NCBI RefSeq assembly: GCF_013167455.1
Contig: NZ_CP038328.1
DNA from: Escherichia coli O157:H7
Lineage (GTDB): Bacteria; Pseudomonadota; Gammaproteobacteria; Enterobacterales; Enterobacteriaceae
Direction: 5' to 3' (one strand)
DNA length: 64,000 nucleotides
Part shown: positions 18,001-24,000 of the stretch, one piece after another
Numbering within the stretch: the first letter of the stretch is position 1
Layout: every line of letters starts with the position of its first letter
Made by a program: the position numbers

Positions 18001-21000
18001 AATCCGCTACAGATCAAACAAGACGGTGGCAAAGCCTTAAAACTGCTGGTGCTGTGGCGTAGTGATGAAGATGCGCAGCAACGCCTGGATATGGTGAAAG
18101 AGTTTAACGAACTGTGCCACTCACACGGCCTGGTAAGCATTATTGAGCCAGTCGTCCGCCCACCACGTCGTGGCGATAAATTCGATCGCGAACAAGCGAT
18201 CATCGATGCCGCCAAAGAGCTGGGCGACAGTGGCGCTGACCTCTACAAAGTTGAAATGCCGCTTTACGGTAAAGGTCCGCAACAAGAGCTTCTCAGTGCT
18301 TCACAACGTCTGAATGACCATATCAATATGCCGTGGGTGATCCTCTCTTCCGGTGTCGACGAAAAACTGTTCCCGCGTGCCGTACGCGTGGCAATGACAG
18401 CGGGTGCATCGGGCTTCCTGGCTGGTCGTGCTGTCTGGGCATCGGTCGTCGGTTTACCAGACAACGAGCTGATGCTGCGTGACGTTTGCGCACCGAAATT
18501 ACAACAACTTGGCGATATCGTCGACGAAATGATGGCTAAACGCCGTTAAAATGGGGATACAAAAATGAAATGGTTTAACACTTTAAGTCACAACCGTTGG
18601 CTGGAACAGGAAACCGATCGCATCTTTGATTTTGGTAAAAATTCCGTAGTACCGACCGGATTTGGCTGGTTAGGCAATAAAGGGCAAATCAAAGAAGAGA
18701 TGGGCACCCATCTGTGGATCACAGCTCGTATGTTGCACGTTTATTCCGTTGCTGCGGCGATGGGTCGACCTGGCGCTTACTCGTTGGTTGATCACGGTAT
18801 TAAAGCCATGAACGGCGCACTGCGCGATAAAAAATATGGCGGCTGGTATGCCTGTGTGAATGACGAGGGCGTGGTGGATGCCTCCAAACAGGGCTATCAA
18901 CATTTCTTTGCTCTGCTGGGTGCTGCCAGCGCCGTCACAACGGGTCACCCGGAAGCGCGCAAGCTGCTCGATTACACCATTGAAATTATCGAGAAATACT
19001 TCTGGAGCGAAGAAGAGCAGATGTGCCTGGAGTCCTGGGACGAAGCCTTCAGCAAAACCGAAGAGTACCGCGGCGGCAATGCCAATATGCACGCAGTGGA
19101 AGCTTTCTTAATTGTTTATGACGTAACGCATGACAAAAAATGGCTGGATCGCGCGATTCGCGTGGCTTCCGTGATTATCCACGACGTCGCAAGAAATAAT
19201 CATTATCGCGTTAACGAACACTTCGATACCCAGTGGAATCCGCTGCCGGATTACAACAAAGATAACCCGGCGCACCGCTTCCGCGCGTTCGGAGGTACAC
19301 CAGGCCACTGGATCGAATGGGGCCGTTTAATGCTGCACATCCACGCGGCCCTGGAAGCCCGTTGCGAACAACCGCCAGCATGGCTGCTAGAAGATGCCAA
19401 AGGTCTGTTTAACGCCACCGTGCGTGATGCCTGGGCACCCGATGGTGCGGACGGGATTGTTTATACCGTTGACTGGGAAGGAAAACCGGTGGTCCGCGAA
19501 CGTGTGCGTTGGCCTATCGTCGAAGCGATGGGTACGGCCTACGCGCTCTACACCGTCACCGGCGATCGCCAGTACGAAACCTGGTATCAGACATGGTGGG
19601 ACTACTGCATCAAATACCTGATGGACTACGAAAATGGTTCATGGTGGCAGAAGCTGGATGCGGACAATAAGGTCACCACCAAAGTCTGGGACGGCAAACA
19701 GGATATTTATCACCTGCTGCATTGCCTGGTGATCCCGCGTATCCCGTTAGCGCCAGGCCTGGCTCCGGCAGTTGCGGCGGGTCTGCTGGATATTAACGCG
19801 AAATAACTGACTAAAAAAACGACATATCAGGCTGCACGCCGGGTATGTCGTTATTCAATAAAGGTACCTCGTATGCAAATCACCAACATGCATTGCAGTG
19901 GACAGACCGTTTCACTTGCCGCGGGGGATTATCACGCGACCATTGTGACCGTCGGTGCAGGTCTGGCTGAATTAACCTTTCAGGGCTGTCATTTAGTTAT
20001 TCCACATAAACCCGAAGAGATGCCGCTGGCACATCTGGGCAAAGTCCTTATTCCGTGGCCGAACCGGATCGCCAACGGCTGTTATCGCTATCAGGGGCAG
20101 GAATATCAGTTACCCATTAATGAACATGGTTCAAAAGCCGCTATTCATGGGCTGCTCGCCTGGCGTGACTGGCAAATCAGCGAATTAACCGCCACCAGCG
20201 TTACCCTGACAGCTTTTCTGCCGCCCAGTTACGGCTATCCGTTTATGCTGGCTTCGCAGGTTGTTTATTCGCTCAATGCACGCACGGGTCTTTCCGTTGA
20301 GATCGCAAGTCAGAATATTGGTACTGTGACCGCACCCTATGGTGTGGGTATTCATCCTTATTTAACCTGCAACTTAACATCTGTTGATGAATATCTGTTC
20401 CAGCTTCCGGCAAACCAGGTTTATGCCGTCGATGAGCACGCTAATCCGACAACGCTTCACCACGTTGATGAGCTGGATTTAAATTTCACGCAGGCGAAAA
20501 AAATAGCCGCGACAAAAATCGACCACACCTTTAAAACCGCTAATGATCTGTGGGAAATAACCATTACCCATCCACAACAGGCGCTTTCGGTTAGCCTTTG
20601 TTCCGATCAACCCTGGGTACAAATTTATAGCGGTGAAAAATTACAGCGTCAGGGACTGGCAGTTGAACCTATGAGTTGCCCGCCTAACGCCTTTAATTCA
20701 GGTCTCGACTTATTATTACTGGAACCAGGGAAAACGCACCGCCTGTTTTTTAATATTTACGGGCAACACAATTAATTTTATTAAGAAAAGAACGAGATCA
20801 TTGTTTAGAGTTGTATTTACACAACAGGAAATATTATGGACTTTTTTACGTTATTTTCACCGGATGGGGTCATGCTGGAAACAAACGTGGTATGTATCGT
20901 TATCGCGTTAATGTTTCTTTATACCTTTGTGGGGATATGCGCGGGATTTGGCGGTGGTTTAACCACTATGCCGCTCGTCACGTTAATGCTCCCCGTAAAA

Positions 21001-24000
21001 ATGGCAACACCACTCTCGGTAATTGTCGGCACCGCGACCGCCTTGTACGCCACCTGGCTGTCACGTAAAGAAACGGATTGGCGATCGGCAATGGTACTGA
21101 TTATTTTCTCGTTTCTGGGAATACCCGTCGGTTTATATGCACTGTCGTATTTACCCGACCATTTTATGAAAGTGGGCTTAGGCGGATTCCTTATCCTGTA
21201 CTCCTTTTACAGTATGTTTATTCCACGCCTGCCGATTTATGACCGTAGCTGGATCGCCGCACCTATCGGTGCAGTAGCAGGCGCATTAGGCGCAGCTTTC
21301 TCAACCAACGGACCACCGATGGTTATCTACGGTATGCTGCGTAACTTAGGCCCGGCGGCATTTCGTGGCACTCTGAACGCTTTCTTCACCGCAAACAACA
21401 TCGCGGTGATCGGCGGGCTGGCGACCAGCGGAATTTTGACTGTTTCGATCTTTAAACTGGTGCTGTTTTGTATTCCCACCATGATCCTCGGTTCACTGGT
21501 TGGACAATATGTGCATAAACGTATTTCAGTCAAAGTGTTCCGTGTGATGGTCTTTTTATTGCTGATTGCCTCCGGTTCCATGTTGATAAAAGGCGCGCTG
21601 GGAATTCCCGCCGCTGCCGCACTTCTACCTCCGTTTACCTTGTTAGTTATACTGCAACTGGTATTTGGTAAAAAAGTGGCGGCAATCCGTCAGGCTGAAG
21701 CAAGTAAATAATCACTTATGCGGGTTTAAATTTATATCCGCACACATTCTTTAATTAATTAAACCTGTAATAACAGGATGGCATGAAATATTAGCTTTAT
21801 ACTCTATGGAGATTATTTATGGATACGCCACGCCCACAATTACCAGATTTTGAATTTCATCAGAATAACGACAGTTTTACCCTACATTTTCGACAACGTC
21901 TTATTTTAACCCATAGCAAAGATAATCCTTGTTTATGGATTGGCTCAGGTATAGCGGACATCGATATGTTCCGCGGCAATTTCAGCATTAAAGATAAACT
22001 ACAGGAGAAAATTGCGCTTACCGACGCCATCGTCAGCCAGTCACCGGATGGTTGGTTAATCCATTTCAGTCGTGGTTCTGACATTAGCGCCACGCTGAAT
22101 ATCTCTGCCGACGATCAGGGCCGTTTATTGCTGGAACTACAAAACGACAACCTTAACCACAACCGCATCTGGCTGCGCCTTGCCGCTCAACCAGAGGACC
22201 ATATCTACGGCTGCGGCGAACAGTTTTCCTACTTCGATCTGCGCGGCAAACCGTTCCCGCTATGGACCAGTGAACAAGGCGTTGGTCGCAACAAACAAAC
22301 CTATGTCACCTGGCAGGCCGACTGCAAAGAAAATGCGGGCGGCGACTATTACTGGACTTTCTTCCCACAGCCTACGTTTGTCAGCACGCAGAAGTATTAT
22401 TGCCATGTTGATAACAGTTGCTATATGAACTTCGACTTTAGTGCCCCGGAATACCATGAACTGGCGCTGTGGGAAGACAAAGCAACGCTGCGTTTTGAAT
22501 GTGCTGACACATACATCTCCCTGCTGGAAAAATTAACCGCCCTGCTGGGACGCCAGCCAGAACTGCCCGACTGGATTTATGACGGAGTAACGCTCGGCAT
22601 TCAGGGCGGGACGGAAGTGTGCCAGAAGAAACTGGACACCATGCGTAACGCGGGCGTGAAGGTCAACGGCATCTGGGCGCAGGACTGGTCCGGTATTCGT
22701 ATGACCTCTTTTGGCAAACGCGTGATGTGGAACTGGAAGTGGAACAGCGAAAACTACCCGCAACTGGATTCGCGTATCAAGCAGTGGAACAAAGAGGGCG
22801 TGCAGTTCCTTGCCTATATCAACCCGTATGTTGCCAGTGATAAAGATCTCTGCGAAGAGGCGGCAAAGCGCGGTTATCTGGCAAAAGATGTCGCCGGTGG
22901 CGACTATCTGGTGGAGTTTGGCGAGTTCTACGGCGGCGTTGTCGATCTCACCAATCCGGAAGCCTACGCCTGGTTCAAGGAAGTTATCAAAAAGAACATG
23001 ATTGAACTCGGCTGCGGCGGCTGGATGGCTGACTTCGGCGAGTATCTGCCCACCGACACGTACCTGCATAACGGCATCAGCGCGGAAATTATGCATAACG
23101 CCTGGCCCGCGCTGTGGGCGAAATGTAACTACGAAGCCCTTGAAGAAACGGGCAAGCTCGGCGAGATCCTCTTCTTTATGCGCGCCGGTTCTACCGGTAG
23201 CCAGAAATACTCCACCATGATGTGGGCGGGTGACCAGAACGTGGACTGGAGTCTGGACGATGGCCTGGCGTCGGTTGTCCCGGCGGCGCTATCTCTGGCA
23301 ATGACCGGACATGGCCTGCATCACAGCGACATTGGCGGTTATACCACCCTGTTTGAGATGAAGCGCAGCAAAGAGCTGCTGCTGCGCTGGTGCGATTTCA
23401 GCGCCTTCACGCCGATGATGCGCACCCACGAAGGTAACCGTCCTGGCGACAACTGGCAGTTTGACGGCGACGCGGAAACCATCGCCCATTTCGCCCGTAT
23501 GACCACCGTCTTCACCACCCTGAAACCTTACCTGAAAGAGGCCGTCGCGCTGAATGCGAAGTCCGGCCTGCCGGTTATGCGCCCGCTGTTCCTGCATTAC
23601 GAAGACGACGCGCAGACCTATTCCCTGAAATATCAGTACCTGTTAGGTCGCGACATTCTGGTTGCTCCGGTACACGAAGAAGGTCGCAGCGACTGGACGC
23701 TCTATCTGCCAGAGGATAACTGGGTCCACGCCTGGACCGGAGAAACCTTCCACGGTGGAGAAATAACTGTTGAAGCGCCCATCGGCAAGCCGCCGGTCTT
23801 TTATCGCGCCGACAGCGAATGGGCTGCACTGTTCGCCTCGTTAAAAAACATCTAATCATGCCCGCCCGTGGGGAAACTCACGGGCAAATGGAGAATAACG
23901 ATGAGTCACATCACAACGGAAGATCCGGCAACTTTGCGCCTGCCCTTTAAAGAGAAACTCTCTTACGGTATCGGCGATCTGGCCTCTAACATCCTGCTGG

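What the first reader, a model, noticed from the sequence alone, without database searches (positions are those of the whole stretch)
20836..21711. TauE/SafE-like membrane protein gene inside the sulfoquinovose catabolic cluster
Seen in sequence: a 291-aa glycine-rich, multi-helix hydrophobic protein (GFGGGLTTMPLV…) with SD and ATG, sitting in the 1 kb between yihR and yihQ on the same strand as yihUTSR and yihQPO. From established knowledge, the canonical sulfo-EMP cluster as I recall it is yihO-P-Q-R-S-T-U-V-W, with yihR and yihQ adjacent, and TauE/SafE exporters accompany organosulfonate pathways, for example the sulfolactate exporter in the Pseudomonas sulfo-ED cluster. Inference: this is a strain-variable addition and a candidate exporter for the sulfonate end product (DHPS or sulfolactate) or for sulfite.
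Basis: partly seen in the sequence, partly recalled or inferred. Interest (0 to 1): 0.6.

Follow-up and report, generated by a model that had tools for sequence, protein, structure and literature searches.

The report
TauE-type sulfonate exporter in sulfoquinovose operon
E. coli O157:H7 carries a conserved membrane-transporter gene inside its sulfoquinovose (plant sulfo-sugar) operon that K-12 has lost; it is probably the pump that expels the sulfonate waste product, a job so far assigned without a test to another K-12 protein.

Summary
Window 20836-21711 (+) is an intact 291-aa gene between yihR and yihQ. It matches Pfam PF01925 (TauE/TSUP, E=8e-35) and RefSeq annotates it as 'sulfite exporter TauE/SafE family protein'. 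The window is E. coli O157:H7.

The gene varies between strains. About 1,290 of 5,426 complete E. coli genomes have it. About 2,610 have the K-12-type 198-bp yihR-yihQ spacer instead. About 1,420 lack yihR-yihQ altogether.

It is not an addition. Salmonella and E. whittamii carry it in the same slot. It has diverged in step with yihQ, yihT and yihU under strong purifying selection. The K-12 haplotype nests among tauE+ haplotypes, so K-12 lost it.

The protein belongs to an isolated Enterobacterales subfamily: at least 79% identity inside, at most 39% to anything else, with an extra C-terminal helix. In all 14 taxa examined it lies in a sulfoquinovose cluster, either sulfo-EMP or sulfo-ED-type, always beside a separate sugar symporter.

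Best reading (inferred, ~0.6): it exports the C3-sulfonate end product DHPS. Sulfite export is unlikely because the pathway makes no sulfite. TauE-type exporters are already predicted in other sulfoglycolysis clusters, so this is a new member of a known kind. It does question the untested assignment of YihP as DHPS exporter.

The parts
20836..21711 (+). tauE-like gene (TSUP family, 291 aa), the candidate C3-sulfonate (DHPS) exporter
   Evidence: ORF and translation. PF01925 E=8e-35. RefSeq WP_000345437.1 'sulfite exporter TauE/SafE family protein'. AF2 model pLDDT 94.4 with two helix sets plus an extra C-terminal helix at 259-290. dN/dS 0.04-0.08.
20826..20829 (+). Shine-Dalgarno AGGA, 6 nt before the ATG
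   Evidence: Read directly from the sequence. The N-terminus MDFFTLFTPDG is conserved in orthologues from other genera, which supports this start codon.
20776..20835 (+). 60-bp yihR-tauE spacer (25% GC)
   Evidence: No + strand promoter-like or terminator-like site found here by the consensus scan.
21712..21818 (+). 107-bp tauE-yihQ spacer. It holds a weak hairpin at 21720-21741 and the inverted repeat CCTGTAATAACAGG at 21764-21777.
   Evidence: The last ~62 bp are homologous to the 3' end of the K-12 spacer. The fold is not significant (z=-1.5). On the + strand no terminator-like site was reported.
19873..20775 (+). yihR (sulfoquinovose mutarotase), the upstream neighbour
   Evidence: RefSeq annotation of the identical O157:H7 record.
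21819..23855 (+). yihQ (sulfoquinovosidase), the downstream neighbour
16751..19806 (+). yihU (sulfolactaldehyde reductase, makes DHPS), yihT (aldolase) and yihS (isomerase)
   Evidence: YihU scores 603 bits against the NCBIfam sulfolactaldehyde 3-reductase equivalog.
23901..26732 (+). yihP and yihO, paralogous MFS symporters that are 64% identical
26799..27491 (+). ompL (KdgM-family porin), the end of the operon
14826..16583 (-). csqR (regulator) and yihV (sulfofructose kinase), transcribed divergently
   Evidence: with coordinates converted using locus offset +10872.

Best explanation
The gene encodes a polytopic inner-membrane transporter of the TSUP (TauE/SafE, PF01925) family. It is an original, vertically inherited part of the enterobacterial sulfoquinovose (SQ) catabolic cluster. 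Most likely it is co-transcribed with yihUTSR and yihQPO-ompL and is made when SQ is catabolised. Its probable job is to export the dead-end C3-sulfonate that the pathway produces: 2,3-dihydroxypropane-1-sulfonate (DHPS), and perhaps also sulfolactate. Export of this anion would be driven by the membrane potential. SQ and its glycosides would enter through the separate sugar symporters YihO and YihP. The K-12-type haplotype, carried by about half of E. coli, lost the gene in one deletion or replacement event and must export DHPS another way. Shown here: the gene is real, it belongs to the family, it forms an isolated subfamily, it is conserved in SQ clusters, it is under purifying selection, and K-12 lost it. 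Inferred: co-transcription, the substrate (DHPS), the direction of transport and the energy coupling.
For: Family: PF01925 matches at E=8e-35, and the family's near-invariant GFG and GPP glycine/proline motifs are present.
Isolated subfamily: all full-length relatives at 79% identity or more fall in one 50%-identity cluster. The next relatives are at most 39% identical, are about 240 aa long, and lack residues 1-12 and 258-291. The nearest outgroup protein sits in an unrelated gene context.
Context: in 14 of 14 taxa the gene lies inside an SQ cluster.
- Sulfo-EMP clusters: E. coli, E. whittamii, Salmonella, strain RIT691, Klebsiella quasipneumoniae, Atlantibacter and Lelliottia.
- Sulfo-ED-type clusters: Hafnia, Kluyvera, Morganella, Mixta, Pantoea, Enterobacter kobei and Leminorella. 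PMC7491151 lists Hafnia and Leminorella as carriers of sulfo-ED genes.
Partner transporters: every cluster also has its own sugar-type symporter (MFS or SSF). The TSUP is the only transporter family shared by both pathway types. Klebsiella and Lelliottia have the TSUP plus a single MFS (in Klebsiella it is 73% identical to YihO). In E. kobei an ED-type cluster with tauE lies about 2.3 kb from an EMP cluster with none in the stretch read.
End product: both cluster types encode a beta-hydroxyacid-dehydrogenase-type reductase and no aldehyde dehydrogenase or desulfonating enzyme. This fits DHPS as the shared end product.
Co-evolution: amino-acid identity between O157 and Salmonella is 87.3% for tauE, against 87.2% for yihQ, 88.0% for yihT and 87.6% for yihU. 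dN/dS is 0.04-0.08. GC content lies within the range of the cluster genes.
Loss in K-12: in a yihS+yihQ tree the K-12 haplotype sits inside the tauE+ E. coli haplotypes, with tauE+ E. whittamii and Salmonella outside. One spacer type accounts for 2,609-2,634 genomes, of which 2,358 are at least 99% identical.
Operon: no + strand promoter-like or terminator-like site was found in either spacer flanking tauE.
Literature: TauE-type proteins are the predicted sulfolactate/DHPS exporters of sulfo-TAL and modified sulfo-EMP clusters (PMC7491151, PMC8873060), and an unnamed sulfolactate exporter is listed for the sulfo-ED operons (bioRxiv 10.1101/2019.12.17.868638). YihP is called the DHPS exporter 'most likely', and the mutants listed there do not include yihP (PMC6278857). 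YihP is a 64%-identical paralogue of the importer YihO.
Against: K-12 has no tauE, yet the literature reports that it grows on SQ and excretes DHPS (PMC6278857). So the gene is not essential for export, and another route exists (YihP or an unlinked transporter). I found no transport assay for any TSUP with DHPS, and the family's founding member TsaS is described as an uptake permease (PMC8873060). DHPS as the product of the ED-type clusters is only inferred: their reductase is just 28-30% identical to YihU and falls below every NCBIfam cut-off. No expression data for this gene were found. The guilt-by-association argument cannot separate DHPS from sulfolactate or another pathway anion.
Confidence: 0.6

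Rival explanations
1. It is a sulfite exporter, as the database name says, removing sulfite made during sulfonate breakdown.
For: The Pfam and RefSeq family name. The title of the reference cited in PMC8873060 names Cupriavidus necator TauE a sulfite exporter.
Against: Sulfo-EMP ends at DHPS without C-S cleavage (PMC6278857). None of the 14 clusters examined encodes a desulfonating enzyme. No relative outside its own 50%-identity cluster exceeds 39% identity, so the name carries no substrate information. No NCBIfam equivalog model matches.
Confidence: 0.07
2. It is an uptake permease for SQ, sulfoquinovosyl-glycerol or another sulfonate, like the 4-toluenesulfonate uptake system that gives the TSUP family its name.
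For: The family includes a proposed importer (PMC8873060). The gene always co-occurs with SQ catabolic genes (same context calls as above).
Against: Every cluster already has a dedicated sugar-type symporter: YihO/YihP-like MFS or SSF. The K-12 yihO mutant cannot grow on SQ (PMC6278857), which makes YihO the importer there. K-12 imports SQ without this gene. An importer shared by two clusters that each keep their own importer (E. kobei) is less parsimonious than a shared exporter.
Confidence: 0.15
3. It transports a different pathway-related anion. Examples are exporting sulfolactate or relieving a toxic build-up of sulfolactaldehyde or sulfosugar phosphates. Alternatively it has a membrane role unrelated to sulfonates.
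For: TauE-type proteins are predicted sulfolactate exporters elsewhere (PMC8873060, PMC7491151). Substrate specificity cannot be read from the sequence.
Against: The clusters carry a reductase and no sulfolactaldehyde dehydrogenase. The strict linkage to SQ clusters in 14 of 14 taxa argues against an unrelated role.
Confidence: 0.15
4. It is a decaying or neutral passenger gene with no current function.
For: About half of E. coli genomes do without it.
Against: dN/dS is 0.04-0.08. The reading frame is intact in E. coli, E. whittamii, Salmonella and 11 other taxa. Identity stays at 80-87% across families of Enterobacterales.
Confidence: 0.03

Closest known systems
TauE-type exporters of other sulfoglycolysis clusters (SftE of the sulfo-TAL clusters, predicted sulfolactate/DHPS exporter, PMC7491151; TauE permease of Arthrobacter AK04, PMC8873060). 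An unnamed sulfolactate exporter is also listed for the P. putida SQ1 and R. leguminosarum sulfo-ED operons (bioRxiv 10.1101/2019.12.17.868638); that it is TauE-type is my recollection only.
   Same: The Firmicutes and Arthrobacter proteins are described as TauE-type, the same Pfam family. All are encoded inside an SQ catabolic cluster and are predicted to export the C3-sulfonate end product.
   Different: Sequence relationship was not tested because I had no sequences for them. The enterobacterial protein forms its own subfamily, at most 39% identical to anything outside, with an N-terminal extension and an extra C-terminal helix. It sits in the E. coli/Salmonella sulfo-EMP cluster, where the papers I could search name only YihO and YihP as transporters.
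TauE of Cupriavidus necator H16 and SafE (the founding members of PF01925)
   Same: Family membership by HMM. The substrates are small sulfur oxyanions or sulfonates.
   Different: Those act in pathways that release sulfite or sulfoacetate. Here no desulfonation occurs. Direct sequence comparison was not done.
YihP (MFS) of E. coli K-12, the presumed DHPS exporter
   Same: Same cluster, and the same proposed role (PMC6278857, PMC12890257).
   Different: An unrelated fold and family. YihP is a 64%-identical paralogue of the importer YihO. It is present together with tauE in O157 and Salmonella. Klebsiella and Lelliottia keep tauE and only one MFS.
Long and short yih cassette variants of E. coli (PMC12608037)
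   Same: The same locus, and the same theme of structural polymorphism in the SQ cluster. The short cassette probably explains the ~1,420 genomes without yihR-yihQ.
   Different: That paper describes ompL-yihOPQRSTUVW versus yihTUVW. Its text contains no hit for TauE, sulfite, exporter or O157. The tauE+ long form is a third variant.

Membership tests
TSUP / TauE-SafE family (Pfam PF01925) | Significant match to the family profile HMM over most of its length | tested here: met
   E=8.2e-35, 121 bits, residues 23-248 against model positions 2-235 of 237.
TSUP / TauE-SafE family (Pfam PF01925) | Polytopic membrane protein of about 8 TM segments built from two 4-TM halves (established knowledge of the family) | tested here: inconclusive
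   The AF2 model (pLDDT 94.4) shows two matching helix sets, 16-128 and 138-255, each a TM, a short helix and three TMs, plus an extra helix at 259-290. Profile-profile alignment of the two halves was only marginal: E=0.026 over 32 columns, in register. No solved TSUP structure was found to compare with.
TSUP / TauE-SafE family (Pfam PF01925) | Glycine/proline-rich motifs conserved across the family at the helix breaks | tested here: met
   G37 and G99 are invariant. F38, G39, P46, G159, P160 and P161 are at least 90% conserved in a 101-sequence alignment.
TSUP / TauE-SafE family (Pfam PF01925) | Transport of sulfite or an organosulfonate | not testable with these tools
   Needs transport assays or mutant metabolite measurements.
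Sulfite exporter (literal reading of the annotation) | Linked to a pathway that releases sulfite (a desulfonating enzyme nearby) | tested here: not met
   No such enzyme family appears in any of the 14 clusters. Sulfo-EMP ends at DHPS (PMC6278857).
Enterobacterial sulfoquinovose catabolic cluster (sulfo-EMP yih operon) | Located inside the cluster, on the same strand, with short spacers and no intervening terminator | tested here: met
   Spacers are 60 and 107 bp. No + strand terminator-like or promoter-like site was found in them.
Enterobacterial sulfoquinovose catabolic cluster (sulfo-EMP yih operon) | Conserved linkage and co-divergence with the other cluster genes across species | tested here: met
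   Same slot in Salmonella and E. whittamii. Placed after yihQ in Klebsiella, RIT691, Atlantibacter and Lelliottia. Amino-acid identity and dN equal those of yihQ, yihT and yihU.
Enterobacterial sulfoquinovose catabolic cluster (sulfo-EMP yih operon) | Induction by sulfoquinovose under CsqR control | not testable with these tools
   Published RNA-seq covers K-12 and Nissle 1917 only, and K-12 lacks the gene (PMC12608037). No CsqR-like repeat is enriched near tauE.

The most novel reading that the evidence does not exclude
This isolated TSUP subfamily is the dedicated DHPS exporter of enterobacterial sulfoglycolysis, for both the sulfo-EMP and the sulfo-ED-type clusters. YihP would then be a second importer rather than the exporter. 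The K-12 model strain would be a derived loss variant. The tauE presence/absence polymorphism in E. coli would change how fast DHPS is released to sulfonate-respiring, H2S-producing gut bacteria.
Probability: 0.45. Interest if true: 0.55.

Novelty: new member of a known kind. Interest (0 to 1): 0.4.

Why it matters
[quoted passage not shown] The E. coli yih cluster is the textbook sulfo-EMP pathway. Its excreted product DHPS feeds H2S-producing gut bacteria (PMC6278857).

The export step has no tested protein. YihP is named by default, from the K-12 cluster.

In the seven Enterobacteriaceae taxa examined the sulfo-EMP cluster carries a dedicated TSUP transporter, and K-12 has lost it. This gives a concrete, easily tested candidate for the exporter.

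It also warns that K-12 is not representative of O157:H7 or Salmonella at this locus. It adds a third structural variant to the published long/short cassette picture. None of this is a new kind of system.

Tried and rejected
- NCBIfam gave no hit for the protein or its Hafnia orthologue, so no curated functional name exists.
- The PDB sequence search found nothing. Foldseek against the PDB found nothing at E<=0.001; the best partial matches were BacA/UppP at TM 0.43-0.49. No structural template informs mechanism.
- The promoter/terminator scan found no + strand site in the spacers flanking tauE. The downstream spacer does not fold significantly (z=-1.5).
- I searched for extra copies of the AAAAGTGACRTC repeat seen twice in the yihV/yihU spacer. 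The two-mismatch match at 21672 is at chance level (13 found against 9.3 expected).
- The inverted repeat CCTGTAATAACAGG has no other close copy in the window.
- I looked for a tauE remnant in the K-12 198-bp spacer and found none. Only the first ~30 bp and the last ~62 bp are homologous to O157. A weak 69% match to the upstream spacer is not convincing in such AT-rich sequence.
- A horizontal-transfer 'addition' was rejected because GC and GC3 lie within the range of the cluster genes, and because of co-divergence and the haplotype tree.
- The genome-contig scan with the single protein returned only 3 loci, because its patterns find close relatives only. Contexts were therefore collected through the look-up of encoding contigs.
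- The internal-repeat test by hhalign was inconclusive.
- Phylogroups of tauE+ and tauE- genomes were not assigned, because no tool cross-tabulates them.
- Literature searches found no paper that mentions this gene in the E. coli or Salmonella yih cluster. Denger et al. 2014 is not in the searchable library and may show it in a figure.

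
Full report
**What is there**

The window is E. coli O157:H7: the 3,983 bp from yihR to yihQ are 100% identical to several O157:H7 chromosomes. An ATG-initiated ORF of 291 codons runs from 20836 to 21711 on the + strand. An AGGA Shine-Dalgarno lies 6 nt upstream. The ORF fills a 1,043-bp gap between yihR (19873-20775) and yihQ (21819-23855), on the same strand as yihUTSR and yihQPO-ompL.

The product matches Pfam PF01925 (TauE/SafE) at E=8.2e-35 over residues 23-248. 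RefSeq already annotates it as 'sulfite exporter TauE/SafE family protein', WP_000345437.1. No NCBIfam model matches. Its recollection that K-12 has yihR next to yihQ is also correct: K-12 has a 198-bp spacer with no gene.

**The protein**

An AlphaFold2 model built on a 101-sequence alignment is confident (mean pLDDT 94.4, pTM 0.90). It shows two matching helix sets, residues 16-128 and 138-255. Each set is a transmembrane helix, a short helix after a glycine/proline break (GFGGG at 36-40, NGPP at 158-161), and three more transmembrane helices. An additional C-terminal helix spans 259-290.

The glycine and proline positions at the breaks are invariant or nearly so across the family alignment. 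Sequence-level detection of the internal repeat was only marginal. No TSUP structure has been solved. The best partial structural match is the undecaprenyl-pyrophosphate phosphatase BacA, with TM-scores of 0.43-0.49.

**An isolated subfamily**

Against 1.84 billion 50%-identity cluster representatives, exactly one full-length representative is close (80% identity). The next full-length hits are at most 39% identical and about 240 aa long. Against the 90%-clustered database, the best 120 hits are 79-100% identical. All that carry an organism name are from Enterobacterales: Salmonella, Kluyvera, Klebsiella, Enterobacter, Raoultella, Lelliottia, Atlantibacter, Pantoea, Mixta, Hafnia, Morganella and Leminorella. 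Citrobacter proteins sit in the same 90% cluster as the Salmonella orthologue.

The subfamily differs from its nearest relatives in three ways:
- a conserved N-terminal stretch, MDFFTLFTPDG;
- the extra C-terminal helix;
- about 55 subfamily-specific residues.

The nearest outgroup protein lies in an unrelated gene context.

**Distribution in E. coli**

| Class | Complete genomes (of 5,426) | Source |
|---|---|---|
| Carry the gene, always single-copy and chromosomal | 1,287-1,295 (331 at >=99% identity to the O157 allele, 948 at 95-99%) | |
| Carry the K-12-type 198-bp spacer | 2,609-2,634 (2,358 at >=99% identity, which points to one event) | |
| No megablast match to yihR-yihQ | about 1,420 | |

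Most of the third class probably carry the published short cassette yihTUVW (PMC12608037). At least one has an IS1-mediated deletion. PMC12608037 describes only long and short cassettes, and its text contains no hit for TauE, sulfite, exporter or O157.

**Polarity: a loss in K-12, not a gain in O157**

- Salmonella enterica has an 87%-identical orthologue in exactly the same slot, yihR-tauE-yihQ. E. whittamii has the same arrangement, 98% identical.
- Klebsiella quasipneumoniae, strain RIT691, Atlantibacter and Lelliottia have it one position along, yihQ-tauE-MFS. For Atlantibacter and Lelliottia the flanks show the same yihX-to-typA chromosomal locus.
- Between O157 and Salmonella, tauE amino-acid identity is 87.3% and dN is 0.079. 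The values for yihQ (87.2%, 0.077), yihT (88.0%) and yihU (87.6%) are the same. The Klebsiella comparison also agrees. dN/dS is 0.04-0.08.
- GC and GC3 lie within the range of the cluster genes.
- In a yihS+yihQ neighbour-joining tree, the tauE- K-12 haplotype nests among tauE+ E. coli haplotypes, with tauE+ E. whittamii and Salmonella outside.
- No remnant of the coding sequence survives in the K-12 spacer. Only its two ends are homologous to O157.

**Context outside the sulfo-EMP cluster**

In seven further taxa an 81-84% identical orthologue ends a different cluster: Hafnia, Kluyvera, Morganella, Mixta, Pantoea, Enterobacter kobei and Leminorella. This cluster encodes an IlvD/Edd-family dehydratase, an HpcH/HpaI aldolase, an aldose epimerase, an SGL lactonase, a beta-hydroxyacid-dehydrogenase-type reductase and an SDR dehydrogenase, then the TSUP. 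An SSF symporter and a LacI regulator are transcribed divergently.

This is the enzyme-family set of the sulfo-ED pathway. PMC7491151 names Hafnia and Leminorella as carriers of sulfo-ED genes. Three independent links tie the cluster to SQ:
- in E. kobei it lies about 2.3 kb from a sulfo-EMP cluster that has no tauE or yihR in the stretch read;
- in Kluyvera it sits beside typA-glnA, the same neighbours that flank the yih cluster in E. coli;
- in Pantoea a KdgM/OmpL-type porin follows it and the end of a DeoR-type regulator gene lies just upstream.

These clusters have a reductase and no aldehyde dehydrogenase. The reductase is only 28-30% identical to YihU and falls below all NCBIfam cut-offs. 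In a tree of the TSUP orthologues, the ED-linked copies form one tight clade across host families. The EMP-linked copies form the basal branches, grouped by host genus.

**Function**

The TSUP is the one transporter family common to both pathway types. Every cluster also has its own sugar-type symporter. Klebsiella and Lelliottia clusters keep the TSUP plus a single MFS; the Klebsiella one is 73% identical to YihO.

What the two pathways share is SQ going in and a C3-sulfonate going out. Import is already covered, so the most economical reading is that the TSUP exports the end product, DHPS. Sulfite export, the literal annotation, is unlikely. No cluster encodes a desulfonating enzyme, and sulfo-EMP ends at DHPS (PMC6278857).

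The reading agrees with published predictions for TauE-type proteins in sulfo-TAL and Arthrobacter sulfo-EMP clusters (PMC7491151, PMC8873060). It questions the K-12-derived assignment of YihP as DHPS exporter. That assignment is stated as 'most likely', and the mutants listed there do not include yihP (PMC6278857). It is repeated in a 2026 review (PMC12890257). YihP is a 64%-identical paralogue of the importer YihO.

The main counter-evidence is that K-12 excretes DHPS without this gene. So the gene is not indispensable, and substrate and direction remain inferences.

**Regulation**

No + strand promoter-like or terminator-like site lies in either flanking spacer. A weak hairpin follows the stop codon in E. 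coli, and a stronger-looking one in Salmonella by eye. The RNA fold of the E. coli spacer is not significant. Co-transcription with the operon is therefore plausible but not shown. No CsqR-like repeat is enriched near the gene.

**Verdict**

The gene is real, conserved and already annotated. It was wrong that the gene is an addition. This is a new member of a known kind, a TauE-type exporter in a sulfoglycolysis cluster. It is of moderate interest because it gives a testable candidate for the unassigned DHPS export step and shows that the K-12 reference cluster is a derived, reduced form.

Noticed in passing
window 16751-27491, compared with L002, L017, L018, L019: Alleles of the yih cluster differ by 3-6% in nucleotide sequence between E. 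coli strains (JC distance 0.03-0.057 for yihS+yihQ; dS up to 0.2 between O157 and K-12). From my own knowledge this is well above typical E. coli core divergence. It suggests old haplotypes kept or exchanged by recombination.
   Followed up: partly
L022 (Enterobacter kobei) 95-18876: A sulfo-ED-type cluster with tauE and a sulfo-EMP cluster (csqR, yihV, yihU, yihT, yihS, yihQ, MFS; no yihR or tauE in the stretch read) lie side by side. Only a T6SS Hcp/Tlde1 pair separates them, so one genome appears to carry two SQ pathways with a single TSUP.
   Followed up: partly
L011 (Kluyvera ascorbata) 68-11768: The sulfo-ED-type cluster sits directly beside typA-glnA, the same neighbours that flank the sulfo-EMP yih cluster in E. 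coli. Two different SQ pathways may therefore be alternatives at one chromosomal locus.
   Followed up: no
tree of TSUP orthologues: ED-linked tauE copies from different families of Enterobacterales (Hafnia, Morganella, Leminorella, Pantoea, Mixta, Kluyvera) form one tight clade with very short branches. This hints at recent horizontal spread of the whole ED-type cluster.
   Followed up: no
window 21764-21777: An inverted repeat CCTGTAATAACAGG lies about 40 bp upstream of yihQ. It is conserved between O157 and K-12 in an otherwise poorly conserved, AT-rich spacer, and has no other close copy in the window. It could be a regulatory site or a small hairpin.
   Followed up: partly
window 16638-16649 and 16719-16730: Two exact copies of AAAAGTGAC(G/A)TC lie in the yihV/yihU divergent spacer. 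They may be CsqR operator repeats; this was not compared with published footprints.
   Followed up: no
L020 (E. coli ZF31) 9001-11200: IS1 copies have removed most of yihR through ompL and disrupted yihN. This is another route to loss of the distal half of the cluster.
   Followed up: no
window about 9659-11473 (-): A transposase gene and a partial hypothetical CDS lie between fabY and yiiE in the O157 record. The K-12 record shows only a 117-bp partial CDS there.
   Followed up: no
protein collection, cluster of the query: The 90%-identity cluster returned for the TauE protein also holds 300-aa YihR (aldose-1-epimerase) sequences, and its representative is itself a YihR sequence. This looks like a clustering artefact, perhaps bridged by a fused gene call, and could mislead automated annotation.
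   Followed up: partly
window 25287-25328: The yihO coordinates are shifted by 3 bp relative to strain TR01, although yihR-yihQ is 100% identical. The window therefore comes from a different O157:H7 isolate.
   Followed up: no
model m38518ac0b979: The closest solved fold to this TSUP model is BacA/UppP, the undecaprenyl-pyrophosphate phosphatase (TM 0.43-0.49, Foldseek probability 1.0 but E=0.02). This hints at a shared architecture.
   Followed up: no
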